Source of the DNA: Patescibacteria group bacterium
GTDB taxonomy: Bacteria > Patescibacteriota > Patescibacteriia > Veblenbacterales > UBA10138
Direction of reading: 5' to 3'
Length of the DNA stretch: 64,000 bases
NCBI GenBank assembly: GCA_018817715.1
Contig: JAHITT010000004.1
Coordinates: 125,784 to 189,783 of the forward strand
This document shows positions 9,273 to 26,860 of this stretch, piece after piece. The notes under the pieces were generated by a model. That model saw only the letters and a list, made by a program, of their open reading frames with translations. It was not told the origin of the DNA and did not search any database. Numbering within the stretch: the stretch's first letter is position 1; each line of letters opens with the position of its first letter. A program made the position numbers and the translations under genes.

Positions 9273-9782
9273 ATGCCTATTAACCTTAATTTGGAACCCC
9301 AGACTAATCTGGGTACCGAACAAATCAGTTGGTCTTTTAAAGAATTTAACCCTATTATACGTAGCCGACGTTGGTGGTGGTTAGCCGGCGTTATCAGCCT
9401 GCTACTGCTCTTATACGCCGTTTTAACAGGTAATTTCTTATTTGCCTTAATACTCCTAATGGGCGCTATTTTATTCGTTAATGAAACCAAAAGGCAACCT
9501 CGCCATTTAAAATGCCAAATAACTAACAAGGGTTTAGCGGTTGGTAAAAAATTTTGGCGTTGGTCGGAACTAAATGAATTTTGGATAGCTTATCAACCAC
9601 CAACTATAGACAACCTTTATGTCTTACCAAAAAATCTCTTTGATCCCAGATTGTCTATACCCTTAAACAAAACCAATCCTTTAAAAGTCCGAACTGAACT
9701 TAAAAAATTTTTAAACGAAGATTTATCTAAAGAAGACGAACCAACCTCTGAAGCCTTGGCCAAACTCCTTAAATTACAATAA
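9273..9782 (+). CDS. Hypothetical membrane protein with 2 TM helices.
   Basis: 169 aa. A WWWLAGVISLLLLLYAVLTGNFLFALILLMGAILFV hydrophobic hairpin is followed by a terminator hairpin at 9806..9836. Confidence 0.35.
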   Translation: MPINLNLEPQTNLGTEQISWSFKEFNPIIRSRRWWWLAGVISLLLLLYAVLTGNFLFALILLMGAILFVNETKRQPRHLKCQITNKGLAVGKKFWRWSELNEFWIAYQPPTIDNLYVLPKNLFDPRLSIPLNKTNPLKVRTELKKFLNEDLSKEDEPTSEALAKLLKLQ

Positions 9783-9805
9783 TCCTAAAACCTTGATTTT
9801 TCCCC

Positions 9806-9836
9806 AAGCTTCACCTATACTGGTGAAGCTTTTAGT
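9806..9836 (+). terminator. Rho-independent terminator.
   Basis: aagcttcacc-tatact-ggtgaagctt forms a 10-bp perfect stem and is followed by TTAGTTG. Confidence 0.55.
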
Positions 9837-9973
9837 TGTAAATAATAGATCTTTGATAGTATTATAGCGTCAATTTTGCCCTCGTAGTTTCCGCCCAAGG
9901 CGGATCAGCCTCTGGCTGACAAGGGTATAAATTATGTAATTAATCATCATTTATTCACCATGTTATTTATTTT

Positions 9974-10048
9974 GCCCTCGTAGTTCAATGGATAGAACGC
10001 GAGCTTGCGGAGCTTGTGATGTAGGTTCGATTCCTACCGAGGGCACCA
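9974..10048 (+). tRNA. tRNA-Arg (anticodon GCG as read), with CCA encoded.
   Basis: The sequence folds as a cloverleaf: acceptor GCCCTCG/CGAGGGC, D-arm GTTC-AATGGATA-GAAC, anticodon stem CGAGC/GCTTG, loop TTGCGGA, T-arm GTAGG-TTCGATT-CCTAC, then A-CCA. Confidence 0.8.
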
Positions 10049-10167
10049 CGTAGGAAAAGTCAAAGAGTTTTGGTTCGCCTCGCTTCGCTCGGCGACTAAT
10101 TTGTATTCAATTTTGGGGGAAGAAAAGTTTTTAATCATAAAGTCGAAAATTAATCAAGAATTTTAAT

Positions 10168-10839
10168 ATGAATACTCAAAAAGGATTTGCAAACATTGTT
10201 TTGATTGTAATTGTTGTTGGCATTGTCGCTGTTGGTGGATATTTTGTTTTTTCTAAAAAATCAGTAACGCCGACTCAAAACGTAACCGATCAGACCACAT
10301 CTACGGACACTCCTATTAGTAAAAAATCGGTGATACAAGTTCCTTTCATTGATATGGGCGGCTCGGTTGGCTTTGGGGACAAAGTAGGTTATGACCAAAA
10401 TGCCATGAAGAAGGCTTACGAAACAGGAGAACTGATTGGTTGTGGCGATAAAGTTGTTTACGTCAGTAAAGAAGTTACGGCAACAACTCAACCACTCGCC
10501 GCCGCTTACAAAGAACTTTTTGCCACTGGAGCCACTGTGCGCTTTGCAGGAAAGGAACTTGCCAATCCAATCGCAGACCAAGCGAAGGAACGAACTATCA
10601 CTTATGAAAACAGGCCTGCCGATGTCTTCAAGCCACTGCGTTTCATCAAGGCAGAAATCCGTGGTAATGTAGCAATGGTTTATCTTGAAGGTGATCTTGT
10701 TTCTAATGAATGCAATGATCCGCGTGTTGAAGCACAAATTATTTTTACAGCAAAGCAGTTTACTAACATCAGCGAAGTCAAAACCTATTTGAACGGCAAA
10801 GAATTTAATTGGCGTGCATGGATGGATCAACGAGGATAA
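10168..10839 (+). CDS. Hypothetical secreted or membrane-anchored protein with a pilin-like N-terminus; possibly horizontally acquired.
   Basis: 223 aa. The N-terminus is MNTQKGFANIVLIVIVVGIVAVGGYFVF (KGF + hydrophobic helix, no E5). GC content and codon usage are visibly higher than in neighbouring genes. It lies immediately downstream of tRNA-Arg. Confidence 0.45.
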   Translation: MNTQKGFANIVLIVIVVGIVAVGGYFVFSKKSVTPTQNVTDQTTSTDTPISKKSVIQVPFIDMGGSVGFGDKVGYDQNAMKKAYETGELIGCGDKVVYVSKEVTATTQPLAAAYKELFATGATVRFAGKELANPIADQAKERTITYENRPADVFKPLRFIKAEIRGNVAMVYLEGDLVSNECNDPRVEAQIIFTAKQFTNISEVKTYLNGKEFNWRAWMDQRG

Positions 10840-11082
10840 CATTTGATCTATTTTCATTTTTTCAAAGAATTTGCCGCCAAGGAAAAACTTGAAATTGTCA
10901 GCGGTGTGGCTCCACCGCCTTTCCGAATTTTCGCGGAGGACTTCCTCGCCACCTGCGGCGGCGAAATGCGTTCGGACTAATTCAAGAATACTGCACCAGA
11001 AAACTATTTTAAAACCAGACAATGTATATTGTTTGTTTTTTATTTAATTGGCTTTTACAAAAATAACAGCCATAATGTATTT

Positions 11083-13131
11083 ATGAATAATTTAGCCAAA
11101 TCTTTAACTGATTTTAAGGGCGTAGGCCCGGTTCTACTAAAAAAATTAAACAAACTTGGGCTTAATACTGCTCAAGACTTATTATGGCACCTACCAACCA
11201 GATATGAAGATTTTTCCAATATTAAAAAAATTAAAGATTTAAAACCTAATGAAAAAATAACTATTAAAGGTAAAATTCAAACCATAAAAACCCAACGGCT
11301 CTGGCCACGACGATTAACTTTAACCCAAGCCTTATTAAATGACGGTAGCGGCACTATAAAAGCTATTTGGTTTAATCAACCTTATTTAGCTAAAAATTTA
11401 AAACCAGGTGAAGAAATTTGGTTATCTGGCCAATTAAAAGCCACCACTTATGGCCAGCAATTAGAACAACCTCATTATGAAAAATCATCCTCTCAAAAAA
11501 CCACTACTGCAAACCATTTAATACCTTATTATCCTTTAAGCGATGGCCTAACCCACCATACTTTTAGGCAATTAATAAAACAAATCCTGCCTTATACGCC
11601 GAGTTTAACAGATTGGCTACCAACAGAAATAAAAAATAAATTTAAGCTGCTCCACCATTCTAAAATGCTTACAGAGCTCCATTTTCCATCTGACAAAATA
11701 TCCTTAAGCCAAGCCAGGCGACGGCTAGTCTTTGATGAATTGTATTTAACCAGTTTACAAAATAATTTAGCCAAAATTAAAAGGGAGCAAAAAGAAGCGC
11801 CGCCTATGCCCTTTCAACCAGCCTTAAAAAATTTCGTTAACAAATTACCCTACCAGTTAACTAGTGACCAAAAAATAGCTGCCTGGGAAATAATAAAAGA
11901 TTTAGAAAAAGATAGTCCCATGTTCCGCTTATTACAAGGTGATGTTGGCTCGGGTAAAACAGTGGTAGCCGGCTTAGCCGCTTTAAATTGTTTCCTTAAC
12001 AACTACCAAACTGCTTTATTAGCACCGACCGAGGTATTAGCCAATCAACATTTTAACACCTTAAAAAAAATGCTGGCTGATTTTGATATTTCTTTAGCTC
12101 TACTAACCCAAGGACAAAGTTTAACAAATAATGACAATAAAATAAGTAAGGTTAATCTAAAAAAACTATTGGCTGACGGAAAAATAAATATTATTATCGG
12201 CACCCATACTTTATTGAAACCGGCTATAAAAATACCGCAATTAGGCCTGGTTATTGTAGATGAACAACACCGTTTTGGTGTTAACCAAAGACAAATTTTA
12301 ACCACTAAAAACAAAACACTTGCCCCGCATTTCCTGTCTTTAACTGCCACCCCAATTCCCCGCTCCTTAAGTTTGGCGCTGTATGGCGATTTAGCTATAT
12401 CTTTAATAAAAAAATTACCACCCGGCCGTAAGGCTATTATCACCAAAATAATTACCGACCGACAAAAAAAAGAAGCCTACCAACTGATTGAAAAAGAAAT
12501 TGCCTTAGGTAACAAGGTTTTTATTATTTGTCCTTTGGTGGAAGAAAGTGATTTATTAAACGCTACGGCAGCTAATCAAGAACACACCAGATTACAAAAA
12601 GAAATTTTTCCTAATATAAAATTAGGCTTATTGCATGGCCGTTTGAATAGTGCTGCTAAACAGCAAGCTTTAACAAATTTTAAAAACGGCCACACGCCTA
12701 TATTGGTGGCCACCTCGGTGGTGGAGGTTGGTTTAGATATACCCGAAGCTACTGTTATGGCCATAGAAAACGCCGAAAGGTTCGGCCTGGCCCAGCTACA
12801 CCAACTACGCGGTCGAATTGGCCGATCTAACCTAGACAGCCATTGCTTATTAATAACTAATAATGCTAAAAATGAACGTCTAACCGCCATGATTAAATAC
12901 CCCAATGGTTTTGATTTGGCTGAATTTGATTTAAAAACCCGAGGCCCGGGCAGTCTTTTGGGGGCTACTCAATCCGGTTTTATTAAATTAAAATACTGGG
13001 AACTGGTTAACAGTGAAATTATTAAAATAGTCCGCCAAGCAGTCTTACAAACTATTTCTTTAGATGCAACTTTACAAACCTGGCCTGAACTTAAACTTAA
13101 AATTAAACAAGAAAATACCCATTTAGAATAA
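11083..13131 (+). CDS. recG: ATP-dependent DNA helicase RecG.
   Basis: It has an N-terminal wedge/OB region and the helicase motifs GDVGSGKT, VIVDEQHRFGV and LTATPIPRSL. The start is taken at the MNNLAK ATG (the track ORF begins at 11029). Confidence 0.85.
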   Translation: MNNLAKSLTDFKGVGPVLLKKLNKLGLNTAQDLLWHLPTRYEDFSNIKKIKDLKPNEKITIKGKIQTIKTQRLWPRRLTLTQALLNDGSGTIKAIWFNQPYLAKNLKPGEEIWLSGQLKATTYGQQLEQPHYEKSSSQKTTTANHLIPYYPLSDGLTHHTFRQLIKQILPYTPSLTDWLPTEIKNKFKLLHHSKMLTELHFPSDKISLSQARRRLVFDELYLTSLQNNLAKIKREQKEAPPMPFQPALKNFVNKLPYQLTSDQKIAAWEIIKDLEKDSPMFRLLQGDVGSGKTVVAGLAALNCFLNNYQTALLAPTEVLANQHFNTLKKMLADFDISLALLTQGQSLTNNDNKISKVNLKKLLADGKINIIIGTHTLLKPAIKIPQLGLVIVDEQHRFGVNQRQILTTKNKTLAPHFLSLTATPIPRSLSLALYGDLAISLIKKLPPGRKAIITKIITDRQKKEAYQLIEKEIALGNKVFIICPLVEESDLLNATAANQEHTRLQKEIFPNIKLGLLHGRLNSAAKQQALTNFKNGHTPILVATSVVEVGLDIPEATVMAIENAERFGLAQLHQLRGRIGRSNLDSHCLLITNNAKNERLTAMIKYPNGFDLAEFDLKTRGPGSLLGATQSGFIKLKYWELVNSEIIKIVRQAVLQTISLDATLQTWPELKLKIKQENTHLE

Positions 13132-14100: not shown

Positions 14101-15453
14101 TTATAACCAATCCATTACCTCAAACAAATTGCCAACCACGGAAATTTCTAATACCTTGGGAAACTTTATATTATTAGGCAATTTTGAACAAAGAACTTGT
14201 TTAAAACCCAAACGAGCGCTCTCCTGTAATCTTTTAGGCATATTATTAACTGCTCTTATTTCCCCGCCTAAACCCACCTCGCCAAAAACCACTAAATCTT
14301 TAGCCAGTGGTTTTTTTTGCCGAGCTGATATAACAGCTAAACAAACCGCTAAATCCAAAGCTGGTTCTCGACTTTTTAAACCTCCAGCTAAATTAACATA
14401 AACATCATTATAACCAAATTTAAGACCAACTTTTTCTTCTAAAACAGCTATTAACAATTGTAAACGGGCACTATCATAACCAGTTGTAGCTCTTTTGGGG
14501 TAATTCAATTTAGTTACTCTAGTCACCAAAGCTTGCACTTCCACCAACAAACTGCGCGAACCTTGCTGCAGGGCTGTAATACAAGAACCAGCACCAGCGT
14601 GCCGATCGTCTAAAAATAAAGCTGAGGGATTGTTTACTTCTATTAAGCCTCCTTCCTCCATTTGAAAAACCCCTACTTCATCAGTGGAACCAAATCTATT
14701 TTTAGTCGCCCGTAAAATTTTAACCGACTGCTTATCTAAACTTTCTAAACTTAACACCACATCTACCAAATGCTCAATTGTTTTAGGCCCAGCCGCCTGG
14801 CCAGATTTTATAACATGACCAATTACCATAACAGCTGTTTTGGTTTCCTTGGCCAAAGCTACTAAATCACTCAAAATACTTTTTAATTGATTAGGCGAAC
14901 TGGAACCGACTAATGAATCCTCCGAAACCACCGTTTGTAAAGAATCTATTATTAATAATTTTACAGAATTTTGCCGAACCGCTTGGGCAATAGCCTGAAT
15001 ATTTGTTTCTGCAGTAAAACCTAATTTATCACCTTTAACTTTAAGCCGCCTAGCTCTTTGCTCAATTTGTTCTAAAGCTTCTTCGCCCGAAGCATATAAA
15101 ACTGGTTGGCTACAACTATCAGCCAAAGCTAAAAGTAGAGTAGATTTACCCGCTCCCGGCTCACCAGTTAATAAAGTAACTCCTCCTTCCACTAAACCAC
15201 CACCTAAAACTCTATCCACTTCATTTAAACCAGAAACAAAACGCTTTAAAGATAAATTGCTACCAAGTCTTAAAGAAGTTACGCCGGCCGCTTTGGTTGT
15301 TTTAAGAGAGGAAATTGATTGAGATTTAATTATGGTTTCTGGTTGGCTGGCAATGGTACCGAACTGGCCACATTCAGAACAACGGCCCAACCAGGTAGCC
15401 TGTTGGGCATCACAATTAGAACAAGTATAAATAATCGTTGTTTTAGCCGCCAT
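14101..15453 (-). CDS. radA: DNA repair protein RadA/Sms.
   Basis: It has an N-terminal C4 zinc finger (CSNCDAQ...CSECGQ), a Walker A motif GEPGAGKST, a RecA-like core and a Lon-protease-like C-terminal domain. Confidence 0.9.
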   Translation of the reverse strand: MAAKTTIIYTCSNCDAQQATWLGRCSECGQFGTIASQPETIIKSQSISSLKTTKAAGVTSLRLGSNLSLKRFVSGLNEVDRVLGGGLVEGGVTLLTGEPGAGKSTLLLALADSCSQPVLYASGEEALEQIEQRARRLKVKGDKLGFTAETNIQAIAQAVRQNSVKLLIIDSLQTVVSEDSLVGSSSPNQLKSILSDLVALAKETKTAVMVIGHVIKSGQAAGPKTIEHLVDVVLSLESLDKQSVKILRATKNRFGSTDEVGVFQMEEGGLIEVNNPSALFLDDRHAGAGSCITALQQGSRSLLVEVQALVTRVTKLNYPKRATTGYDSARLQLLIAVLEEKVGLKFGYNDVYVNLAGGLKSREPALDLAVCLAVISARQKKPLAKDLVVFGEVGLGGEIRAVNNMPKRLQESARLGFKQVLCSKLPNNIKFPKVLEISVVGNLFEVMDWL

Positions 15454-15462
15454 TTATTTAAA

Positions 15463-16953
15463 TTATGTACATTTATCACTGCCAGCTGGTTTATCTTTAC
15501 CAGCCTGCCAGCGGGCTGTACCCCATTCAAAATGCCACCATTCACCACAATATCTAACCCAACCAACTTCTGACATAACTTGCTGTAATAAAGATATATC
15601 AGTCCAAACATCATTGGGTACTAAATTAATAGACGGCCGGGCAAAAGCCGAACTAATATAAGGACAACTTTGTCCTTGCAGACAAACATCCACTGCCCCG
15701 CCGGTTAAATGAGGTGCGGCACAACTAGGATAGGCCACAAAACTTCGAACCTTATCCGCACCATGTTTAGCTATACCTTCATTAAACAGTTTAGTTTGCG
15801 TAGCCAAACTTCGATGTGCTGAATTGATTTGTAAGGTTTTATTATATTGTGTTTTTAATATGTTTTGTACTTCCAATAATTTTTGATAAGCCTCCTTATT
15901 AAGCCTAGGGTCGCTGGCATAAACCGCGCCAAATTTTTTGGTTTCTATAGCTGTTAAATTATCTTCATTGGCGCATTTATTTTGATTGCTTGCCGCCGCA
16001 TCACTGTCTGAACCAGTTTTGGCTATAATAGTATCCTCTCTGGTAATTGTTTCCAATTTTAAATCCTTAAATTCAACCAAAGCCGGATTAATTAATTGCA
16101 GTAAAGAATAAGACATTAAAGCAATTACTAAACCAACAATAGCGCTAATAATAGTAGAATTGGCGTTTTTGATAGTTTCGGCGCTACCAGCCGCGGCAAT
16201 ACGTTTAAAACCGCCCCACATTATCATAACCACGGCTATAACAGCTATTAAACCAGTAAAAAATTTATAAAAATCCGCTATATATTGACCTAAAGTATTC
16301 CCTGTTACTACCACAGGTTTACCAGCAGTAAAAATCGTACCCGGTATAGTAACTTGCGGAACGAATTCTGTTGTTTTAGATTCTTGGCTTTGGTTTTGTG
16401 TAGTATTATAACTGTCAGCTGGCATCACACAACCTAATTGCAACACTACTCCATTATCACCATATATCTCTTGACAAGTAGATGGACTACAACAATTTAA
16501 ATTACTACAAGCCGCCCCAACTAGACCTAACAATCCCTCCCAAAGTGACGGAGATTTAAATTCTCCAGGACTTACACAATCAATATTAGTACTAACAGCT
16601 GTAGCATCCGGCACTGTTTCATTAAAAGTATTAAAACTAACACATTTATAAACTTTGGAACCCTGACCTATGTCTTTTTGGCAACAAGCTTTACCAGAGA
16701 TAGCTGAAATAGAACAACCATTACAGTCTACGGCATTAGCCGAACCATAACCACAAACATCTACACCAGCTTCATTTTTTTGACAAGCCGAGGTAACAGG
16801 TGAGCTAAAACCTAGTTCATAACCTTCTGCCTGACAAGCCTGAACAGCTTTAGAAGTCGGATCCGATTGAGCTAAAACAAAAGTCGGCCAAGCAACTAAC
16901 CAACTGACAATCAATAATAAATAAACAACTTTCTGTTTCATATTAATAACCAC
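15463..16953 (-). CDS. Secreted Cys-rich protein with an internal two-helix membrane hairpin (VirB2/TrbC-pilin-like) and a C-terminal LAS/M15 (VanY-type) peptidoglycan peptidase domain. It is a candidate T4SS-associated cell-wall hydrolase.
   Basis: It has a signal peptide and an N-terminal region with many Cys. The hairpin reads FYKFFTGLIAVIAVVMIMWGGFKRIAAAGSAETIKNANSTIISAIVGLVIALMSYSLLQLI. The C-terminal domain contains SAHRSLATQ...AYPSCAAPHLTGGAVDV, matching the SxHxxGxAxD motif of M15 peptidases. Confidence 0.6.
   Translation of the reverse strand: MVINMKQKVVYLLLIVSWLVAWPTFVLAQSDPTSKAVQACQAEGYELGFSSPVTSACQKNEAGVDVCGYGSANAVDCNGCSISAISGKACCQKDIGQGSKVYKCVSFNTFNETVPDATAVSTNIDCVSPGEFKSPSLWEGLLGLVGAACSNLNCCSPSTCQEIYGDNGVVLQLGCVMPADSYNTTQNQSQESKTTEFVPQVTIPGTIFTAGKPVVVTGNTLGQYIADFYKFFTGLIAVIAVVMIMWGGFKRIAAAGSAETIKNANSTIISAIVGLVIALMSYSLLQLINPALVEFKDLKLETITREDTIIAKTGSDSDAAASNQNKCANEDNLTAIETKKFGAVYASDPRLNKEAYQKLLEVQNILKTQYNKTLQINSAHRSLATQTKLFNEGIAKHGADKVRSFVAYPSCAAPHLTGGAVDVCLQGQSCPYISSAFARPSINLVPNDVWTDISLLQQVMSEVGWVRYCGEWWHFEWGTARWQAGKDKPAGSDKCT
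16096..16272. repeat. A ~177-bp segment nearly identical to 20092..20268. It is an intragenic duplication or gene-conversion tract encoding the shared membrane hairpin.
   Basis: Direct comparison by eye shows about 90% nucleotide identity (ttgcagtaaagaataagacattaaagc...ccgcggcaatacgtttaaaaccgccccacattatcataacca...). Confidence 0.7.
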
Positions 16954-17593
16954 TTAACAAATCATTTAGTTCCGTTTGTGTTAAAATGCCACTATGCACC
17001 CGACCATTAATTATATAATAAGGTGTACCATCTAAACCAACCGACCGACCTTCCATAATATTCCTTTGAATTAATGGCAAAGTTTCGTTATTACTCAAGC
17101 AAGTTAAAAATTTAGGCATATTTAATTTTAAATCATTAGCGATTGATTCATACACGAAATCACTTAAACTAGATTGATTTTGAAAAAGTTTATCATGATA
17201 ATCCCAAAATTTACCCTGCAGCGAGGCACACTGAGCCGCTTTAGCAGCCGGCAAAGACTGCTCGTGTTCGGCCAAAGGAAAATCTTTCCAAACTAAACTA
17301 ACTCTATCTTTATTTTGGGCAACCATCACAGACAATAAAACAGCCATTTGAGCACAATAAGGACAAGTAAAATCGCTAAACTGAACAATCGTTAGTTTGG
17401 CTCCATTTTTTACTCCTCTTACTGGGTCAGCTGGAAAAATAGTCACCTCACTAGGATTTTTAGGTTGAACTTTTTCTGTCGGCTGTTCCAAAACTGGATT
17501 AATTATTTTTGATTGCTCTTTTAAATTAAAAAAAATCACGACCAACAAAACCACCGCTAATAAACCAAACCAGAAAGAAATTTTTTTTAACAT
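16943..17593 (-). CDS. DsbA-family thiol:disulfide oxidoreductase, membrane-anchored.
   Basis: 216 aa with an N-terminal TM, the CxxC active site FSDFTCPYCAQM and a thioredoxin-fold length. Confidence 0.7.
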   Translation of the reverse strand: MLKKISFWFGLLAVVLLVVIFFNLKEQSKIINPVLEQPTEKVQPKNPSEVTIFPADPVRGVKNGAKLTIVQFSDFTCPYCAQMAVLLSVMVAQNKDRVSLVWKDFPLAEHEQSLPAAKAAQCASLQGKFWDYHDKLFQNQSSLSDFVYESIANDLKLNMPKFLTCLSNNETLPLIQRNIMEGRSVGLDGTPYYIINGRVHSGILTQTELNDLLSGY

Positions 17594-17644
17594 AAAATAT
17601 TAAAACTTAAATCCTAAATAAATCCCAAATCACAATTTCCAAAC

Positions 17645-17860
17645 TTACTTATCTTTTAACATCTCTTTGTTTTTAAGCTTAATTATTATGGAGTTAAAGA
17701 TTAAGTTTAATTCCTTAGCTTCTTGCCATAATTTGCGAGCTGACCTTATTAATTGACTTATAATCGGCTTAATAACGGTATTATTAGGTAAAGTTTTAAC
17801 AAACTTTATCACAGCTATACCAAAGGCAGCTGTCCTGTTTTCTAAATCATACCTTGGCAT
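17645..17860 (-). CDS. Fragment of a four-helix-bundle protein, possibly truncated or a pseudogene.
   Basis: 71 aa. The N-terminus YDLENRTAAFGIAVIKFVKTLP resembles the four-helix-bundle (23S rRNA-IVS-type) family, but the ORF is only about half the usual length. Confidence 0.3.
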   Translation of the reverse strand: MPRYDLENRTAAFGIAVIKFVKTLPNNTVIKPIISQLIRSARKLWQEAKELNLIFNSIIIKLKNKEMLKDK

Positions 17861-17964
17861 TTTGGGTATTATTTAAGATTTAGAAATTAGGATTTGAGAT
17901 TTTATTAAATTGTTAAACCCCTCCATAGGTTTATTTGTTAATATTTAACCTATTTAAAATAACA

Positions 17965-19200
17965 CTAATTGTTCAACTTAATACTTCTTAACTGTCTAGT
18001 AGCTGAATCCGTAAAATAAAGCCACTGACCATCTTTAGAAACAGTTACCTCACCGACACTCATTCCCTCACCCCGCTCGTTTACCGGACTAGCTAAAAGA
18101 ATGGCCGAACCTGTGCCCAAATCTACTCGCCAAATATTATCTGGCTGACCTGTGGCTAATTCTGGTACCAAACCGGCTCCCTGGGGCATTTCTTGTGGAG
18201 CTGTGCAATAAGCTGCTGAACCAGTCAAGGTACACCTATCGGCCCAAGTAGCAATATTTAACTGACGTTTATTGGTTCCCACATTATCCGTACTAGCGTT
18301 TACTAACCATAAAGCTGGTTTAAAATCCGTTTTATCACTATAAACAGAATATAATAATTTTTGACCATCGGGTGACCACTTAGAATTAAAACCTCGACCA
18401 TCTACATATAAACCCTTAAAATTTTCCTGATTAAAACCAATTAATAATACTTGCTGAGAAAAGGCTGTATTATCGGTACCGGTTCTCGATAAAGCCACCA
18501 CCTGATTATTGGGCGACCAAGCAACTTCTACCTTGCTGGCGTTTTCACCCATAGGTTCTATGCCAGTTAACCCGGATCCATCGCTGTTTATTTTTACCAC
18601 CCAACGATCATTAACGCTATCAGCCAAATATTTACCGGCGATTTGGCCACTATCTGGCGAAAAAGAAAATTCAGCCATTTCTTTAGGCAAGGTATATTGT
18701 TTTTTTGATTTAAAATCATACACAATATTAGCACCATCGGGAAATTCTAAAACAGCCTTATCGCTATCTTTAGACCAAGTAACATTTTGCACGCTACAAT
18801 AATCTGTTTGATTAATCACCCTTTTAACACCACTGGCATCTATTTCATAAAATTTACAATCCTGCGGATTATAATACCTAAGGCGCCCAGAAGCTGTGTC
18901 TGGTTTAACCACTGGATCAGTCGTAACCAAAGGTAAAGCTTCGGCACCCCCTTGATCCAAACCTGTTCCTGGCCCACCTGGAGTTACTGTATCGGCTCCA
19001 GGCAAAGTACCGGTACCAGGCTCGGTTGTTGTACCGCTACCCGGTCCAGTTATGGGAAAATTAGTTTGACCGCCTGGCGTAATAACCGATGGTTGAACTT
19101 TGGGCCGCCATAATAAATACAAAAACCAAACTATTAAACCAATAGCCACAACTATTAATACACCAATCCAAAATTTTTTACTTTTTAAAAATTGCCACAT
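17965..19200 (-). CDS. Membrane-anchored beta-propeller protein, TolB/PD40-like, with a Gly/Thr/Pro-rich linker.
   Basis: 411 aa. It has an N-terminal TM (FWIGVLIVVAIGLIVWFLYLLW) and a low-complexity PGGQTNFPITGPGSGTTTEPGTG linker. Repeated blade-like segments (WSPDG.., SPDSGQ.., WSPNN..) follow. Confidence 0.5.
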   Translation of the reverse strand: MWQFLKSKKFWIGVLIVVAIGLIVWFLYLLWRPKVQPSVITPGGQTNFPITGPGSGTTTEPGTGTLPGADTVTPGGPGTGLDQGGAEALPLVTTDPVVKPDTASGRLRYYNPQDCKFYEIDASGVKRVINQTDYCSVQNVTWSKDSDKAVLEFPDGANIVYDFKSKKQYTLPKEMAEFSFSPDSGQIAGKYLADSVNDRWVVKINSDGSGLTGIEPMGENASKVEVAWSPNNQVVALSRTGTDNTAFSQQVLLIGFNQENFKGLYVDGRGFNSKWSPDGQKLLYSVYSDKTDFKPALWLVNASTDNVGTNKRQLNIATWADRCTLTGSAAYCTAPQEMPQGAGLVPELATGQPDNIWRVDLGTGSAILLASPVNERGEGMSVGEVTVSKDGQWLYFTDSATRQLRSIKLNN

Positions 19201-19206
19201 AATATT

Positions 19207-20727
19207 TTATCTATCAGGAAATTCTGTGTCTGTAATATTTAAATCGCAAGCGATTGGTTGCATTTTACCATTACTATCAAACGGCTGGAATAATTTATCA
19301 GCACTAACCTTCGTATAATCAATATCATCCGCTAATAAATCTAAAGCACAAATCGGATAGCCACTATGCCAACGCGTTACACCTATCCCGTTATTGTCCA
19401 AAATTTTCTTACTTATAGTACCACAAGTTGAAGCATCTATAGCATACCAATCATCACAACCGTCCGATTCCCTTTCCACCAACAAAGCCAAACCCTTAAC
19501 CCCGCCCGCTGCTGCACAATGATTGGTATTCTTTAAAGTCAAACCACTCCAACAACCCGTCAAAGTATAATAACCATTATTTTCCACATCCATAGTATCA
19601 CTAATAGTACCATTCGGTTTCATCATGCCACAATCAAAACCTACTTTATCACCGTTATTGCAGATTAATAAAGCATCTAACCTGTTTACTTCTATACCCA
19701 CTAACTTACCCTTTAACATATAGCTACTGCAAGCATAAGGAAAACCCTCCCGAGAAGAATTTTTAAAACAACCCTGACCTGTTTCCTGACATTCCAAACC
19801 AGTACATTCACCAGTACTCAAAACCAATTTTTTACCACAACTGCTACTAGGGGAATTTTTGCCTTGCCGTTCCACACAGGTACCATTTTTTGTTTCACCA
19901 GCCGCTGGCTTACAATCTTCATCTTTAAAACAAGGTAGTCTATCAAATGAACCACCGACACATTCATAATAAGTGTACCCGGCATTATACAAAGATTTGG
20001 CTTCTTGGTATGCAGGGCAAAAACCAAATATTTCCGGCTTAACCATTTCTATGCCCGGCAAGGTATTTTTAACCAAAGCCGGGTTAACCAGTTGCAGTAA
20101 AGAATAAGACATTAAAGCGATTACTAAACCGACAATAGCACTAATAATAGTAGAATTGGCATTCTTTATGGTTTCAGCACTACCGGCCGCGGCAATACGT
20201 TTAAAACCGCCCCACATTATCATAACCACAGCAGCTACAGCCAAAAAACCAATAAAAAATTTATAAAAGGCTGCCAAATAACCAGGAAAACCACCAGTAA
20301 TCCCTGGTCGGCAAAAACCCAAACCTTTTTGCTGACAATCTTGATCAGTAGAACAAGAAGTTGGCTCCTCGCCTAAAGTATAACTGGAACAAAATTTTTC
20401 ACTAACTCCCGGTATACCTACTTGTAAGGGTATAGAGGGGCTGGGGGCAAAACAACGAGCCGTGGCCTGACCGCCAACTTCATCACAATTTTGACAACTG
20501 ATATTAGTCGGATTAGCGGCACAACCACCCGGCAAAACAGAAGGATCTTTTTCCCATAAGCCTTTGCCCTCTTTACAATTATCTTCAAACCAACAACGTT
20601 GCTGAACAAAATCTCCAGCCGCCGCTTTGGCGCTATAACTAAAAATAAAAAATAAAACCAAACTAAAAAAGAAAAATAATAATACTTTTGATGGCTTTAT
20701 TAAAAAAAATCTTTGTAAAATAATCAT
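19207..20727 (-). CDS. Secreted Cys-rich protein with the same VirB2/TrbC-pilin-like two-helix hairpin as 15463..16953. It is a paralogue without the peptidase domain.
   Basis: It has a signal peptide (start chosen at the MIILQRFF ATG) and more than 40 Cys. The hairpin FYKFFIGFLAVAAVVMIMWGGFKRIAAAGSAETIKNANSTIISAIVGLVIALMSYSLLQLV is almost identical to the module in the 15463..16953 protein. Confidence 0.5.
   Translation of the reverse strand: MIILQRFFLIKPSKVLLFFFFSLVLFFIFSYSAKAAAGDFVQQRCWFEDNCKEGKGLWEKDPSVLPGGCAANPTNISCQNCDEVGGQATARCFAPSPSIPLQVGIPGVSEKFCSSYTLGEEPTSCSTDQDCQQKGLGFCRPGITGGFPGYLAAFYKFFIGFLAVAAVVMIMWGGFKRIAAAGSAETIKNANSTIISAIVGLVIALMSYSLLQLVNPALVKNTLPGIEMVKPEIFGFCPAYQEAKSLYNAGYTYYECVGGSFDRLPCFKDEDCKPAAGETKNGTCVERQGKNSPSSSCGKKLVLSTGECTGLECQETGQGCFKNSSREGFPYACSSYMLKGKLVGIEVNRLDALLICNNGDKVGFDCGMMKPNGTISDTMDVENNGYYTLTGCWSGLTLKNTNHCAAAGGVKGLALLVERESDGCDDWYAIDASTCGTISKKILDNNGIGVTRWHSGYPICALDLLADDIDYTKVSADKLFQPFDSNGKMQPIACDLNITDTEFPDR
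20092..20268. repeat. Second copy of the ~177-bp near-identical segment (see 16096..16272).
   Basis: About 90% nucleotide identity to 16096..16272 over the hairpin-coding region. Confidence 0.7.
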
Positions 20728-20737
20728 AAAATAAAAA

Positions 20738-21115
20738 CTACTTAGCAATTGCCTCAATTGCCGCCTCCATACCAACAAAAGGAGTTGATACTGCCTTTAA
20801 ACCAAAAGTGGACACGCACTGAAAAGTATTATCTAAACACCAAGCCGACACAATAATAACAATTAAAACCCCTAAAATCACCCAAGTTATAGGATTGCCT
20901 AATATAGAAGCCACGACACTAATTAACCAAATCATTATTCTCTTCTTAATCTTTGCCTTAATTTTCTGAACTGCTTGTGTCTTAGCTTCACCTAAAGCAG
21001 CTTGCTGGCCCAAATTTTGTGCCTGTTTTAACACTTGTTGACGCCTAGCCATTTCCAGTTGTTCCTGGTATTGTTGTTGCATTTCTTGCTCTTTTTGTTC
21101 TGGTTGGTCGGGCAT
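20738..21115 (-). CDS. Small membrane protein with an N-terminal Q/E-rich coiled coil and two C-terminal TM helices.
   Basis: 125 aa containing MIWLISVVASILGNPITWVILGVLIVIIVSAW. It lies in the cluster between the VirB4-like gene and the pilin-like gene. Confidence 0.4.
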   Translation of the reverse strand: MPDQPEQKEQEMQQQYQEQLEMARRQQVLKQAQNLGQQAALGEAKTQAVQKIKAKIKKRIMIWLISVVASILGNPITWVILGVLIVIIVSAWCLDNTFQCVSTFGLKAVSTPFVGMEAAIEAIAK

Positions 21116-21271
21116 AATTTATAAAAACCCTAATTACTAATTTCTAAATCCTAATAAAATTCAAAACCACAACTTAAATTTAATATTCTTTTATGTCATC
21201 CTGAAATTACCTGATTCTTCGTTTCGCTCCGAATGACACAATTTTTAGTTTTAATTTGTGCTTTTTATTTT

Positions 21272-21853
21272 TTACTGCCACTCGGCGCCATTTACTAACC
21301 AATCATTATTAATTAAAATCATTTTTAGTTCAATAGCTTGATATTTTATAGTTGCTTCACCATCGCGTGCTTTACTTTCCTGACGCTGAGTACTAACCAA
21401 AACTGTAGCTTGATTTGTTTGGCTAGCTAATACTTCCACTGCCAAAGCCCTAGTAGCCACACTATAAAAAACATCGGTTAACTCCTGGTTAAGCAAAGAA
21501 TTCAAATAACTTTGATAAGCTGGGGTAGTTAAATCAGCCACACTAATTAAATTGGCAAAAGGGTTGTCAGTTGAATAAGAACCAAATTTCTCAACAAATA
21601 AACGTGCCTTGGCTTGTCTGGCATACTGCTGACTATCCGCTGAACTCGTTGCCTCTAAATTATCTAAAGGTAGTTCAATTGTAGAATTATTATTAGTAAT
21701 GGCCGAAAGACTATCGTCTAACTCGGTAATTTCCTGGTTACCAGGCATTTTAGGGGACTCTTGACCCTTAAATTGCCACAAAATAGCAACCACTATTAAT
21801 AAAACAACAATTGAACTTATGATGATGATTAGGTGACGGCGAGAGAGGTACAT
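21272..21853 (-). CDS. Bitopic membrane protein with the topology of a VirB8-like protein (inference).
   Basis: 193 aa. A short cytoplasmic N-terminus and one TM (LIIIISSIVVLLIVVAILW) are followed by a ~150-aa extracytoplasmic domain. It lies immediately downstream of VirB4. Confidence 0.35.
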   Translation of the reverse strand: MYLSRRHLIIIISSIVVLLIVVAILWQFKGQESPKMPGNQEITELDDSLSAITNNNSTIELPLDNLEATSSADSQQYARQAKARLFVEKFGSYSTDNPFANLISVADLTTPAYQSYLNSLLNQELTDVFYSVATRALAVEVLASQTNQATVLVSTQRQESKARDGEATIKYQAIELKMILINNDWLVNGAEWQ

Positions 21854-21928
21854 AAAACTGAAGGCTAAATAGTAAGGGTGCTAATTAAAAATCCTAAATT
21901 ATAAATATCAAATCTTCAAACTAATTAT

Positions 21929-23803
21929 CTATCCTATTTCCGGTTCTTGCAGGCTTTGTTCAAAATCTTTTTTAGCCTGCTCTATTTCCAACAATTGCCT
22001 AGGATCGGAAGTTATTAATTGATCTTCGGTATAAGAAGCCACTATTTTAATAGCGGCATGCTTAGCGCCAGCAAAAAATATTCCTTCACCCACACCACAC
22101 TCCAAAAGCAAATATTTTTCCCCTTCCGTCAATAAGAAAACAGAAGCGATTTTATCTATGGCCGCCGATGATTGTTTAAGCAGTAACTGTAAAGAAGAGT
22201 TAGTTACTATGGCCTGACCATAAGGTGAATTTAAAAAGTCATTAACATCTTGGGTAATAGTTGTAACACCCAAATAATACTTACGGCAACGTTTAACTAA
22301 AGCAAAAATAAACTTGGCGCTATCTTCGTTCTGCATTAACCACCAAGCTTCATCAATTACCAAAACTCGCTTTTTCATTTCCGAACGAACCACGTTCCAA
22401 ATATAATTAACTATGGTATAAATAGCGATCGGTCTTAACTCATCTTCCAAATCTCGGACCGAAAAAACCACCAATTGGTTCTTCATATCCACAGTGGTCG
22501 GACTATTAAATAATCCAGAAAAAGTGCCTTCGGTATATTTTTTAATTCTTAATACTAAACTTTCTCCACCTTCCATACCGGCCAAAACTTCCTGAAAATC
22601 CGACATAACTGGCGGTTCTACCTGAGATAAATCAGAAGAAATGGTAATATCTTTTTTAGCGTAAGTTTCCAGCAATGCTCGGTCTATCAAAGAATCTTCT
22701 TGATGAGTTAAATTACCCAACATTAAACGCATTAAACCTTTTAAGGTTATAACAGCCGAACGAATAATATCACCAGCCTTAACATCACCCACCGGCCGAG
22801 GTAAATCAAAAGGATTAATCTTGGCTTCAGAATTAAGAGAAATATTAACATAACTACCACCTACGGCCGCTGATAAATGTTTGTATTCCATTTCTGGGTC
22901 AATAATAATAACATCCGTGCCCATCATTAAAGAACGCAAAACTTCTAATTTAACAGCATAACTTTTACCCGCACCTGAAGTGGCAAAAACTACTGAGTTA
23001 GCGTTTTGCAAACTAAAACGATCAAATAGAATCAAAGAATTATTATGCCGATTGATGCCATATAATATACCATCGTCGCTAGTTAATTCGGCCGACATAA
23101 AAGGAAAGGATGAAGCGACCGGCGAAGAATTCATATTAAAATAAACCTGCAATTCATCCATACCCAAAGGCAAGGTTGAATTAAAACCCTGCTCCGCTTG
23201 CCACAAAGCCCGCCGAGAATAAACCAACTTAGAACCAAACAAACCTTCCACTTGTTGAGTTATTTTGTCTAACTCTTTTAGGGTAGACGCATACAAAGTT
23301 ACATATAAAGCATATTGAAAAAACCTTTCTGATCCTTGAGTCAAATTATCCCTTAATTGTTCAATATCCTGTAAAGCTGTCTCCCGAACCGGATCCCTAG
23401 GCGCTCCTTTTTCCCGATCAGCCATCATTTGCGCTTCTAGGGCACCAACTTTATTCCTAAGTTGTTTTAAAATTACTTCGGACGGTATCATATAAAAATA
23501 CATACCCACATCCAAAGTAACATTAAGATTAACTACCGGCACAAACCAACCTAAAGAAATATACCGAGGATAAGCCATTACAAAAATGGTACGTAAAAAC
23601 TGTCCGTTTAACTCTATGTGATTAGGCGTTACCTTAAAAGCTGCCGGAGCAATAAGTTCTTTTATTTTAACCGAACCCTCGCGCAATACTTTTTCCGCTT
23701 CAATCAATTCCTTTTCTGAAGATACGGTCATAGACGAACCAGCTTGTTCCAACTGCTCTTGGTCTTGTAATTCTTTTTTTGCTTGGTGTATAGAAATAGC
23801 CAT
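21929..23803 (-). CDS. Type IV secretion/conjugation ATPase of the VirB4/TrbE/CagE family.
   Basis: 624 aa with the Walker A motif FATSGAGKSYAV, which is immediately followed by the VirB4-typical IIDPEMEY (DPxGEY-like). The Walker B motif is VLVIDEAWWLM. Confidence 0.8.
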   Translation of the reverse strand: MAISIHQAKKELQDQEQLEQAGSSMTVSSEKELIEAEKVLREGSVKIKELIAPAAFKVTPNHIELNGQFLRTIFVMAYPRYISLGWFVPVVNLNVTLDVGMYFYMIPSEVILKQLRNKVGALEAQMMADREKGAPRDPVRETALQDIEQLRDNLTQGSERFFQYALYVTLYASTLKELDKITQQVEGLFGSKLVYSRRALWQAEQGFNSTLPLGMDELQVYFNMNSSPVASSFPFMSAELTSDDGILYGINRHNNSLILFDRFSLQNANSVVFATSGAGKSYAVKLEVLRSLMMGTDVIIIDPEMEYKHLSAAVGGSYVNISLNSEAKINPFDLPRPVGDVKAGDIIRSAVITLKGLMRLMLGNLTHQEDSLIDRALLETYAKKDITISSDLSQVEPPVMSDFQEVLAGMEGGESLVLRIKKYTEGTFSGLFNSPTTVDMKNQLVVFSVRDLEDELRPIAIYTIVNYIWNVVRSEMKKRVLVIDEAWWLMQNEDSAKFIFALVKRCRKYYLGVTTITQDVNDFLNSPYGQAIVTNSSLQLLLKQSSAAIDKIASVFLLTEGEKYLLLECGVGEGIFFAGAKHAAIKIVASYTEDQLITSDPRQLLEIEQAKKDFEQSLQEPEIG

Positions 23804-23841
23804 AAAATAATAAATTCAGAGTCAAAAATTATGAATAAACT

Positions 23842-24531
23842 CTATTCTGCTTCCACTTCCAATTTATCCATATTAACCAATTTTTGCTGTTGAGATAATT
23901 CTGGATTATAACTAGTATAATAAAGTTCTACTAAGCCTTGAGTGTCCAAACGAACGCTCTTAAGTCCCAAAGAAGACAAACCACCCGACACCGAATAAAC
24001 TCTTTGCTCTAAAGATTCTAAATAATGAACAAAACGCTCCCGAGAAAGTTGGATGGATTTAGCCGCCGAAAATATTGCTACCAATCTTTGCCAAAAACCA
24101 CGACTTTTATCAGCTCCTGGATTATAAGGTACCACCACATAAAAACGCTTAGTCATAATATCCCCCAAACCAATCAACTCTTTAATATAACCAATATAAT
24201 CTGTCATTTGAACACGCAATAATTCATTAGTTTGTTGTTTTAGTAGGCCACCTAATTTGTCCAAATAACCATCAATATTTAATCGGCGAGATTGGATAAC
24301 AATTTGTAAAGGAAATTCTAAAGAATTTAAAAATTGAACATAACCTTGAATAATGGCCTCTTGCTCTTGTTCACTTTTTAAAACAAAGTTAACTGAAGAG
24401 CAAAGCAAAACCGCCCTTAAAGTACCATCTTTAAGAACAACGGCATCTTCTCTGATTTCTTGAATAGCTAAATGAGAAACCGTGGAAGCCAGTTGGGATT
24501 TTTTACCTGATAATTCTTTTTTAGTAGCCAT
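23842..24531 (-). CDS. Hypothetical soluble protein in the T4SS-like cluster.
   Basis: A 229-aa ORF tightly packed between the VirB3-like and VirB4-like genes. No motif was recognised. Confidence 0.4.
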   Translation of the reverse strand: MATKKELSGKKSQLASTVSHLAIQEIREDAVVLKDGTLRAVLLCSSVNFVLKSEQEQEAIIQGYVQFLNSLEFPLQIVIQSRRLNIDGYLDKLGGLLKQQTNELLRVQMTDYIGYIKELIGLGDIMTKRFYVVVPYNPGADKSRGFWQRLVAIFSAAKSIQLSRERFVHYLESLEQRVYSVSGGLSSLGLKSVRLDTQGLVELYYTSYNPELSQQQKLVNMDKLEVEAE

Positions 24532-24537
24532 AAATAA

Positions 24538-24981
24538 TTATTGATTAATATCTTCTTCCGGATTATAAGCCCCGCCGGTATCTACCATTAAAACTAATTC
24601 CTGTAAGCGCGACTTATTAAAAGGTTGTTTGCTGGAAAGGCTAACTTTAGCCGGCATAACCACTGGCCGACGAACAGCCTTTTTTAAATCTTCCTCATTT
24701 ATTTCTTTCCGCCATATTCTCTCTTTGGGTTGTTTAATACCTTGGAATAAATTCAATAAAAAATAATGAACGGGCATACCATTAACTTTAACAAAAGAGA
24801 AAATAATAGATAAACCAGCTGTTATAATTCCCAACAATAAAAATAAAGCAAAATCAAATAGCTTAAATTCAGCAAACACCAAAAAACCACCAATCATTAA
24901 TATAATAAATTGTCGACTGGTTATCGGACCAAAAATTTTGTCCTCAATGTCTATAAATTGTGGTACCACAAACTGTTTCAT
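24538..24981 (-). CDS. PrgI/VirB3-like small membrane protein with 2 TM helices.
   Basis: 147 aa containing FIILMIGGFLVFAEFKLFDFALFLLLGIITAGLSIIFSFV. Its size, topology and position just upstream of VirB4 match VirB3/PrgI. Confidence 0.4.
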   Translation of the reverse strand: MKQFVVPQFIDIEDKIFGPITSRQFIILMIGGFLVFAEFKLFDFALFLLLGIITAGLSIIFSFVKVNGMPVHYFLLNLFQGIKQPKERIWRKEINEEDLKKAVRRPVVMPAKVSLSSKQPFNKSRLQELVLMVDTGGAYNPEEDINQ

Positions 24982-24986
24982 AAATT

Positions 24987-26846: not shown

Positions 26847-26860
26847 AGTCTAGTACAGTA

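What the first reader, a model, noticed from the sequence alone, without database searches (positions are those of the whole stretch)
10050..11020. Higher-GC gene with a pilin-like N-terminus immediately downstream of tRNA-Arg; candidate horizontal acquisition.
The ORF 10168..10839 is visibly GC-richer (frequent GCC, GCG, CCG and CGC codons) than flanking genes. It begins MNTQKGFANIVLIVIVVGIVAVGGYF, a KGF + hydrophobic-helix start resembling type IV (pseudo)pilin prepilin-peptidase substrates but lacking Glu5. It sits directly 3' of tRNA-Arg, a classic integration hotspot. An antisense 253-aa ORF on the opposite strand is almost certainly spurious.
Basis: partly seen in the sequence, partly recalled or inferred. 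Interest (0 to 1): 0.5.

Follow-up and report, generated by a model that had tools for sequence, protein, structure and literature searches.

The report
tRNA-docked mobile gene cassette cargo
The flagged gene encodes a membrane-anchored cell-envelope protein and sits in a 950-base mobile cassette inserted exactly at the end of a tRNA gene; the cassette belongs to an apparently undescribed, serine-recombinase-linked family spread across the ultra-small Patescibacteria (CPR).

Summary

Composition is only mildly unusual: GC 41.7% against 37.2 +/- 3.0. Strand skew and codon usage are outliers.

The decisive evidence is comparative. Six relatives keep the order SHMT-FolD-169aa-tRNA-Arg(GCG)-recG. 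Five have no gene in the slot and one has a different gene.

The gene lies in a cassette, 10049-10998, with two conserved ends. The 5' module is a ~97-nt repeat plus leader that starts right after the tRNA's CCA. The 3' module is ~140 nt and ends in a mimic of a tRNA 3' end (...GCACCA).

These modules recur next to 16 tRNA isoacceptors in at least 106 DNA stretches from diverse Patescibacteria, each with one small, variable cargo gene. Autonomous copies also carry a large serine recombinase, 81-92% identical across classes.

The "pilin-like" N-terminus belongs to the conserved 5' module and is shared with other cargo proteins.

Horizontal acquisition is supported. The integration mechanism is inferred. 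I found no published description of the element.

The parts
9974..10048 (+). tRNA-Arg(GCG). Its 3' end GCACCA (10043-10048) is the docking point (attB-like) of the cassette.
   Evidence: ARAGORN; Rfam RF00005 at 70.4 bits. All six relatives have the same tRNA between the 169-aa gene and recG. GCACCA precedes the repeat in 91 of 113 family copies.
10049..10167 (+). Cassette 5' module. It holds the conserved terminal repeat (IR; 10049-10116, core 10094-10116), leader 'b' (10111-10136) and an extended leader up to the ATG. This copy lacks the inner ~33 nt of the repeat, between two TTTTGGGGG repeats.
   Evidence: nhmmer profile of 99 family copies hits 10050-10132 with E 5e-24. There are 0 mismatches to the IR5 and IR-core consensus. 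Identity to other loci is 92-98% and 91% to relative L015 together with the tRNA. No Rfam family matches.
10168..10839 (+). Cargo gene, 223 aa. Signal-anchor (residues 1-32, 10168-10263), disordered Thr/Ser/Gln-rich linker (about 33-52), GerMN domain (about 53-220) with invariant Cys92 and Cys182.
10856..10998 (+). Cassette 3' module. It holds a 35-nt piece like codons ~31-44 of the family's recombinase (10861-10899), a terminator-like hairpin GCGGTG/CACCGC (10901-10918) followed by a T-rich run, a second GC hairpin (10947-10963), and the pseudo-tRNA end GGACTAATTCAAGAATACTGCACCA (10974-10998).
   Evidence: nhmmer profile of 47 copies hits 10856-10998 with E 1e-41. Identity is 92% over 141 nt to L030 and 88% to L043. 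The recombinase-like piece is seen by tblastn and blastn against L097.
10999..11082 (+). Native tRNA-recG spacer, which resumes directly after the cassette. It holds the tRNA terminator hairpin with T-run (~11015-11040) and the recG upstream region.
   Evidence: Aligns with the spacer of relatives L005 (11030-11085 against 2638-2693) and L007. In L005 the uninterrupted junction reads GCACCA|GA, as at 10993-11000 here.
10261..11022 (-). Antisense 253-aa ORF, judged spurious.
   Evidence: It overlaps the homolog-supported sense gene and the conserved non-coding 3' module. Its GC3 of 0.53 compares with a genome value of 0.30.

Best explanation
**What it is.** ORF 10168-10839 is the single cargo gene of a 950-bp non-autonomous integrative cassette (10049-10998). 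The cassette is inserted exactly after the 3' CCA of tRNA-Arg(GCG).

**The family.** The cassette belongs to a family found across Patescibacteria.
- Each member starts with a ~97-nt conserved repeat plus leader that abuts a tRNA 3' end (...GCACCA).
- It carries one small variable ORF.
- It ends with a ~140-nt conserved module whose last 25 nt mimic a tRNA 3' end (GG-17 nt-GCACCA).
- Autonomous relatives additionally carry a large serine recombinase.

**Inferred mechanism.**
- The recombinase recombines the junction 'pseudo-end|repeat' of a circular cassette (attP) with a tRNA gene's 3' end (attB).
- This leaves tRNA|repeat on one side and pseudo-end|host on the other.
- Cassettes without a recombinase, such as this one, would be moved in trans.

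**The protein.** It is a bitopic, extracytoplasmic envelope protein: an N-in signal-anchor, a flexible linker and a GerMN domain with a probable disulfide. It most likely acts as a wall- or membrane-proximal binding or scaffold module, as GerMN domains do in GerM. Its N-terminal anchor is part of the conserved 5' end of the cassette, not a pilin signal.

**Shown:** boundaries, module conservation, target specificity, empty sites in relatives, cargo diversity, domain fold.

**Inferred:** catalysis by the recombinase, trans-mobilisation, expression signals, topology, disulfide, biochemical role.
For: **Empty sites.** The relatives ranked by RecG identity are L005 71%, L007 64%, L013 57%, L008 56%, L014 54% and L015 54%.
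- All keep 169aa-tRNA-Arg(GCG)-recG.
- The spacers are 82, 116, 70, 267 and 371 nt with no GerMN gene (tblastn).
- L015 carries the same repeat but a different 322-aa Gmad2+Germane gene.

**Junctions.**
- attL-like: GGGCACCA|CGTAGG.
- attR-like: CTGCACCA|GAAAAC.
- Uninterrupted L005: GGGCACCA|GATAC.
- Host sequence alignment resumes after 10998.

**Family.**
- The 24-nt repeat core occurs in 106 genome stretches from many Patescibacteria lineages.
- Of 118 copies, 77 directly follow an ARAGORN-called tRNA of 16 isoacceptor types (Leu 39, Arg 21, Tyr 6...).
- GCACCA precedes the repeat in 91 of 113 copies.
- At least 19 loci show the same layout of tRNA|repeat-one ORF-3' module, 660-1570 nt long.
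- The contiguous 'pseudo-end|repeat' junction is seen in 18 recombinase-bearing loci.

**Recombinase.**
- It has the Resolvase, Recombinase and Zn_ribbon_recom domains.
- The canonical composite layout is seen in at least 13 loci and in L122.
- The recombinases are 81-92% identical across Falkowbacteria, Saccharibacteria and Paceibacterota loci.

**Mobility.** The same cargo occurs at different tRNAs: L064/L097 100%, L104 84%, L039/L056 94%.

**Cargo diversity.** CYTH, HD, NUDIX, AP_endonuc_2, Exo_endo_phos, BNR, and many unannotated membrane or secreted proteins.

**Composition.** Skew z 3.45, codon usage z -2.7.

**Protein.**. A DsbA-like gene lies nearby at 16946-17593. One homolog, P0152, is fused to PG_binding_1.
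Against: - No recombinase is present in the 64-kb window, so movement in trans is assumed.
- No circular form or excision product has been observed.
- GC content alone lies within the genome's spread.
- The composite elements contain a second, inverted copy of the 3'-module/repeat block, which a simple attP x attB model does not explain.
- The closest GerMN homologs (L001, L002, L004, L010, L011) show no cassette modules. The ectodomain therefore also exists outside cassettes, and how it was captured is unknown.
- The repeat core was found by exact-match search, which over-represents well-conserved copies.
- Loss from five relatives, instead of gain, is not formally excluded.
Confidence: 0.8

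Rival explanations
1. The gene is ancestral at this locus and was lost several times. On this reading the conserved sequence after the tRNA is a native regulatory leader or tRNA trailer, not a mobile-element end.
For: A distant relative (L015) has the same leader and a gene with a GerMN domain in the same slot. The window copy has no recombinase.
Against: - The L015 gene is not an ortholog. Similarity is confined to the first ~44 residues; the GerMN parts align at 25% identity, E 0.14.
- The five closer relatives lack both the leader and the gene.
- The same leader and 3' module flank unrelated genes next to 16 different tRNA types in distant lineages and pair with a serine recombinase.
- The 3' module ends in a copy of the tRNA-end motif exactly where host sequence resumes.
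Confidence: 0.05
2. The protein is a type IV (pseudo)pilin-like substrate of prepilin peptidase. It would be cleaved after Gly6 and either assembled into, or displayed by, a pilus-type machine.
For: The start M-N-T-Q-K-G-F followed by ~22 hydrophobic residues has the shape of a class III signal peptide (sequence). The QKGF motif is strongly conserved in more than 20 unrelated proteins. From established knowledge, Gly-1, not Glu5, is what cleavage requires.
Against: - Residue +5 is Val.
- There is no N_methyl (PF07963) or prepilin NCBIfam hit even at E<=1.
- The model shows helix 7-28, then ~24 low-confidence residues, then an autonomous GerMN domain with no pilin alpha-beta roll.
- Other family members use lipoprotein signals or plain membrane helices in the same position.
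- No canonical KGFTLIE pilin occurs in the window, and none of the 10 neighbouring ORFs scanned is a PilD.
Confidence: 0.1
3. The insert is the decayed remnant of a classical tRNA-targeted genomic island or prophage that was inserted by a tyrosine integrase.
For: Insertion at a tRNA 3' end with a short duplicated tRNA-end motif is the classical signature of such islands (established knowledge). The insert has atypical skew and codon usage.
Against: - The insert is only 950 bp with sharply conserved ends shared by many one-gene units.
- The only recombinase associated with these ends is a large serine recombinase.
- The element has no match in the phage or plasmid collections, and the repeat core none in viral contigs.
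- The tRNA-end repeat is a conserved 25-nt mimic, not a copy of this tRNA.
Confidence: 0.04

Closest known systems
GerM / GerMN-domain proteins (Pfam PF10646; B. subtilis GerM, PDB 6gzb/6gz8)
   Different: It has a single GerMN domain on a membrane helix, not a lipoprotein with tandem domains. It shares 16% identity with GerM. It has two invariant cysteines. The organism is a non-sporulating Patescibacterium, so the sporulation role cannot apply. The focal protein alone scores just below Pfam's cut-off (21.2 against 23 bits).
tRNA-targeted integrative elements / genomic islands
   Same: It is inserted at the 3' end of a tRNA gene. It leaves the tRNA intact and places a tRNA-end-like repeat at the far boundary. 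It is absent from the same site in relatives.
   Different: The associated recombinase is a large serine recombinase, not a tyrosine integrase. The junction lies right after CCA. Many tRNA species that share GCACCA are used, not a single one. The mobile unit is a one-gene cassette of about 0.7-1.6 kb.
Integron gene cassettes (IntI, attI, attC)
   Same: Both are units of one small, highly variable ORF bounded by conserved recombination-type modules. Both have a conserved structured 3' module and cargo of mixed function. In both, cassettes without a recombinase sit alongside recombinase-bearing platforms.
   Different: There is no IntI tyrosine recombinase, no attC similarity shown and no long arrays. 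Docking is at tRNA ends scattered round the genome. The 5' module supplies a leader, and in one subfamily it also supplies the first ~32 codons.
Large serine recombinase (phage-type integrase / TnpX-type) elements
   Same: Autonomous family members encode the Resolvase + Recombinase + Zn_ribbon_recom architecture, about 470-510 aa.
   Different: No phage or conjugative genes are present. The element is about 2.7 kb with one cargo gene and an inverted duplicate of the end block. It targets tRNA 3' ends. Its recombination sites have not been defined experimentally.
Type IV pilin class III signal peptides
   Same: It has a short polar leader ending in K-G, Phe at +1 and a ~22-residue hydrophobic stretch.
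   Different: It has no Glu5, no HMM match, no pilin fold and a long disordered linker.

Membership tests
GerMN domain proteins (PF10646 Germane) | Match to the Germane profile above the curated cut-off | tested here: inconclusive
   The focal protein scores 21.2 bits against a cut-off of 23 (E 4.7e-4). 29 of 40 aligned family members match, best E 1.9e-13.
GerMN domain proteins (PF10646 Germane) | GerMN fold | tested here: met
GerMN domain proteins (PF10646 Germane) | Extracytoplasmic placement by an N-terminal signal, lipobox or membrane helix | tested here: met
   A helix is predicted at residues 7-28 followed by a linker. Homologs carry membrane helices or lipoprotein signals. The topology itself was not tested.
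Type IV pilins / pseudopilins | Gly at -1 and Phe/Met at +1 after a short basic leader | tested here: met
   MNTQKG|F.
Type IV pilins / pseudopilins | Glu at +5 | tested here: not met
   F-A-N-I-V: residue +5 is Val. It is also absent from the shared N-terminal module in more than 20 proteins.
Type IV pilins / pseudopilins | Match to the prepilin N-terminal methylation/cleavage profile (PF07963, TIGR02532) | tested here: not met
   Neither profile is listed at E<=1 in Pfam or NCBIfam.
Type IV pilins / pseudopilins | Pilin fold: a long N-terminal helix packed on a beta-sheet head | tested here: not met
   The helix ends at residue 28. Residues ~29-52 have low confidence. The head is a GerMN domain.
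Type IV pilins / pseudopilins | A prepilin peptidase in the genome | not testable with these tools
   Only 64 kb of the genome is available. No PilD was found among the 10 ORFs scanned.
tRNA-targeted integrative elements | Insertion at the tRNA 3' end with the site empty in relatives | tested here: met
tRNA-targeted integrative elements | A repeat of the tRNA 3' end at the distal boundary | tested here: met
   GCACCA occurs at 10043-10048 and at 10993-10998. The distal copy lies within a conserved 25-nt mimic of a tRNA end.
tRNA-targeted integrative elements | The element encodes its own integrase | tested here: not met
   The window has no recombinase, only a 35-nt recombinase-like piece. Other family members do encode one.
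Large serine recombinase elements | Recombinase with Resolvase + Recombinase + Zn-ribbon domains linked to the end modules | tested here: met
   L064, L122 and at least 13 composite loci. This holds for the family, not for the window copy.
Large serine recombinase elements | Defined attP x attB recombination with a central dinucleotide | not testable with these tools
   Only junction sequences are available.
Integron cassettes | IntI tyrosine recombinase and attC sites | tested here: not met
   The associated recombinase is of the serine type. The 3' module matches no Rfam family.

The most novel reading that the evidence does not exclude
The cassette would be one instance of a previously undescribed, Patescibacteria-wide gene-cassette system.
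- A large serine recombinase docks circular one-gene cassettes onto the near-universal ...GCACCA 3' end of tRNA genes.
- The cassettes cross class- and phylum-level boundaries.
- One cassette subfamily carries a built-in leader plus signal-anchor (MNQKGFAN...GGYFVFSKKS). Interchangeable ectodomains are thereby delivered ready for display on the cell surface of these episymbionts.
- In function this resembles an integron for surface proteins.
Probability: 0.45. Interest if true: 0.85.

Novelty: new variant of a known kind. Interest (0 to 1): 0.72.

Why it matters
Patescibacteria have tiny genomes and depend on host cells, so their surface proteins and the way they exchange genes are central open questions.

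A compact cassette system would be a concrete route for rapid turnover of envelope proteins and for gene flow between very distant lineages. This one uses tRNA ends as landing pads, is driven by a serine recombinase, and often delivers membrane-anchored or secreted proteins.

There are also practical consequences.
- It gives a natural, small, tRNA-end-specific large serine recombinase with recognisable sites, which could serve as a genetic tool for organisms that are otherwise hard to manipulate.
- The repeats sit at many contig ends, so they probably break assemblies, and this would explain that.
- It warns annotators that the KGF + hydrophobic-helix starts in these genomes are not pilins.

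Tried and rejected
- **Rfam on 9500-11300.** Only the tRNA matched; nothing matched either cassette module.
- **RNA folding.** The 5' flank and 3' flank fold no better than shuffles (z +1.8 and -0.7).
- **Direct repeats of the tRNA 3' half as a classical att site.** The repeat finder found only the 17-nt 5'-end copy upstream. The relevant repeat is the 6-nt GCACCA inside a conserved mimic.
- **The search for related loci with the GerMN alignment.** Genome contigs gave nothing. Metagenome contigs gave 3 loci without tRNAs.
- **Cassette remnants in the homolog loci and empty-site relatives.** None was found at E<=1. My by-eye impression of a decayed pseudo-end in L008 was not confirmed by the profile.
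- **Phage and plasmid collections and viral contigs.** They returned only tRNA matches, or none.
- **Literature.** Seven searches returned results (an eighth, errored) and one targeted reading was made. None described the element or the QKGFAN motif.
- **Inversion switching between the two repeats of composite elements.** Rejected as a frequent event: 28 tRNA-side copies face the recombinase 3' end against 1 in the flipped state.
- **PilD.** It was not among the 10 neighbouring ORFs scanned.

Full report
**1. The observation**

The ORF 10168..10839 (+, 223 aa, MNTQKGFANIVLIVIVVGIVAVGGYF...) and the tRNA-Arg(GCG) at 9974-10048 are as described.

The compositional claim holds only weakly.
- GC is 41.7% against 37.2 +/- 3.0% for 46 other long ORFs (z 1.5). 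10.7% of equal-size windows are as GC-rich.
- The strongly GC-rich piece is the non-coding stretch 10870-10975, at 57.5%.

Two signals do stand out.
- The whole window is C-rich on the + strand whatever the gene orientation. This ORF alone is G-rich there: +0.079 against -0.197 +/- 0.08 (z 3.45).
- Its codon usage is the second most atypical (z -2.7).

**2. The protein**

The exact sequence is in public databases as 'GerMN domain-containing protein [Patescibacteria group bacterium]' on a 251,903-bp contig.
- Only six full-length close homologs were found.
- An exhaustive HMMER search found 604 cluster representatives, most of them matching residues ~85-213.
- The focal protein scores just under Pfam's Germane cut-off, but 29 of 40 aligned relatives match it.
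- With that alignment AlphaFold gives pLDDT 90.3: helix 7-28, a low-confidence linker to ~52, then a compact alpha/beta domain.
- Cys92 and Cys182 are invariant across 40 sequences.
- A DsbA-like gene lies at 16946-17593.
- One homolog is fused to a peptidoglycan-binding domain.

I read this as a membrane-tethered, extracytoplasmic envelope protein. Topology, disulfide and ligand are inferred.

**3. It is not a pilin**

The K-G-F start is real. However:
- residue +5 is Val;
- no prepilin profile matches at E<=1;
- the fold is not a pilin's;
- relatives have lipoprotein signals or plain helices in the same place.

The first ~33 residues are 60-90% identical to the N-termini of more than 20 proteins with unrelated C-terminal domains. 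That is closer than to the protein's own orthologs. Section 6 explains this.

**4. Relatives have an empty site**

I ranked relatives by RecG identity.
- Six genomes keep SHMT-FolD-(flavokinase-translin)-169aa-tRNA-Arg(GCG)-recG.
- In L005, L007, L013, L008 and L014 the tRNA-recG spacer is 82, 116, 70, 267 and 371 nt.
- tblastn finds no trace of the gene in them.
- The window's sequence from ~10999 onward aligns with those spacers.
- L005 reads GGGCACCA|GATAC. The window reads GGGCACCA|CGTAGG at 10048/10049 and CTGCACCA|GAAAAC at 10998/10999.
- L015, a more distant relative, has a different 322-aa gene (membrane helix + Gmad2 + Germane) in the slot.
- The 90 nt after the tRNA in L015 closely match the window's; tRNA plus trailer together are 91% identical over 166 nt.

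**5. That 90-nt stretch is the end of a mobile element**

Its 24-nt core occurs exactly in 106 stretches of the species-representative genome collection.
- The taxa include Saccharibacteria, many Parcubacteria lineages, Microgenomates, WWE3 and Doudnabacteria.
- It often lies at contig ends.
- Of 118 copies, 77 start immediately after an ARAGORN-called tRNA of 16 isoacceptor types.
- GCACCA precedes the repeat in 91 of 113 copies.
- Another 18 copies are preceded by a conserved mimic of a tRNA end, GGACTAATTCAAGAATACTGCACCA.

Downstream of the repeat there are three contexts.
- The 5' end of a large serine recombinase with Resolvase + Recombinase + Zn ribbon domains.
- The antisense 3' end of that recombinase.
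- An unrelated small ORF.

At least 19 loci share the window's layout: tRNA|repeat-leader-one ORF-3' module ending in the mimic, 660-1570 nt long.

At least 13 loci, and L122, show the autonomous layout. In tRNA orientation it reads tRNA | repeat | recombinase (antisense) | inverted repeat | inverted mimic and GC module | leader | cargo | 3' module | host.

Further observations on the family:
- The recombinases are 81-92% identical across classes.
- The same cargo occurs at different tRNAs.
- Cargo is varied: CYTH, HD, NUDIX, AP endonuclease-like, Exo_endo_phos, BNR, and many unannotated membrane or secreted proteins.

**6. The window copy**

Profiles built from the family hit 10050-10132 (E 5e-24) and 10856-10998 (E 1e-41). 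They hit nothing in the empty-site relatives or in the loci of the closest GerMN homologs.

The 3' module is 92% identical to that of a WWE3 genome (L030) and 88% to L043. It contains:
- a 35-nt piece like recombinase codons ~31-44;
- a terminator-like hairpin;
- a second GC hairpin;
- the mimic.

DNA similarity to cassettes L030, L043 and L049 runs through the tRNA, repeat, leader and codons 1-32, and then stops.

Two proteins sharing the N-terminal module were looked up. Both are cassette cargo.
- P0009 sits in a composite element at another tRNA-Arg(GCG).
- P0027 sits after tRNA-Leu.

So the 'pilin-like' N-terminus belongs to the conserved 5' end of one cassette subfamily, joined here to a GerMN ectodomain. 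The closest relatives of that ectodomain (68% identity and below) sit outside such cassettes.

**7. Mechanism**

This is inferred. A circular cassette carries the junction mimic|repeat, which is seen intact in recombinase-bearing loci. The serine recombinase would recombine that junction with a tRNA 3' end. The result would be tRNA|repeat on one side and mimic|host on the other, which is exactly the window's two junctions. The window copy has no recombinase, so it would depend on one supplied in trans.

Unexplained points:
- why autonomous elements hold a second, inverted copy of the end block;
- how new cargo is captured;
- why other GerMN/KGF genes (L001, L002, L126) also sit directly after tRNAs without these modules.

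**8. What is known**

Insertion at tRNAs, large serine recombinases, single-ORF cassettes (integrons) and GerMN domains are each known. This combination was not found in seven literature searches and one targeted reading, in Rfam, or in the phage, plasmid and viral collections. The library is incomplete, so prior description cannot be excluded.

**9. Verdict**

- The GC argument is weak.
- The pilin reading fails membership.
- Horizontal acquisition next to the tRNA is well supported and now has a concrete vehicle.
- The gene itself is an ordinary GerMN envelope protein. The interest lies in the cassette family it reveals.

Noticed in passing
window 9873-9933 (and L005 2430-2533): There is an exact 17-nt copy of ATTTT plus the first 12 nt of tRNA-Arg about 96 nt upstream of the tRNA. 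It is followed by a closing stem with two hairpins (fold z -3.45). The closest relative has a similar partial 5' copy. Its function or origin is unknown.
   Followed up: partly
window 1-64000: The + strand is C-rich throughout (GC skew about -0.2) whatever the gene orientation. Genes on the two strands therefore differ by ~0.35 in coding-strand skew. This is a strong replication-type asymmetry.
   Followed up: partly
window 14104-29989 and 30304-40731: The region holds RadA, two T4SS_pilin-domain proteins (one fused to VanY), a DsbA-like thioredoxin and a TraG-like ATPase, which together look like a Patescibacteria T4SS-type cluster. A 3475-aa ORF follows.
   Followed up: partly
L014 3168-3260: A relative has a second, partial copy of tRNA-Arg(GCG), from the anticodon arm to the T arm and interrupted by an insertion, 40 nt after the real tRNA. 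This suggests past events at the same site.
   Followed up: no
L126 1190-2873: tRNA-Leu(CAG) is followed by two genes: a GerMN protein starting MNQKGF, and a Kre9_KNH+Germane protein. Each is preceded by a similar ~75-nt leader unlike the repeat family studied here. This may be a second cassette family or a small array.
   Followed up: partly
L001 5987-6762; L002 5846-6564: The closest GerMN homologs lie 26 and 83 nt after tRNA-Arg(CCG) and tRNA-Gln(CTG), with different neighbours and no detectable cassette modules. tRNA adjacency recurs in 4 of 7 loci of the family's close or module-sharing members and is unexplained.
   Followed up: partly
window 57577-58110: This ORF overlaps tRNA-His (57563-57636) and has the most atypical codon usage in the window. 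It is probably not a gene.
   Followed up: no
L028, L037, L039, L042, L050, L057, L067, L088: Contigs carrying the repeat come from MAGs labelled Gammaproteobacteria, Chryseobacterium, Deltaproteobacteria or Bdellovibrionales. This means either mis-binned Patescibacteria contigs or a wider host range.
   Followed up: no
L064 1700-3520, L122 627-3477 and 11 further loci: Autonomous elements contain two inverted copies of the block '3' module + mimic + repeat', and a 26-nt inverted pair (AAATATGGTTCGAGCCGATGTTTTTC) that flanks the recombinase unit. A simple one-site integration model does not predict this layout.
   Followed up: partly
L045 about 2140-2190: A run of N (masked bases) interrupts the recombinase gene in this public record as served by the tool.
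   Followed up: no
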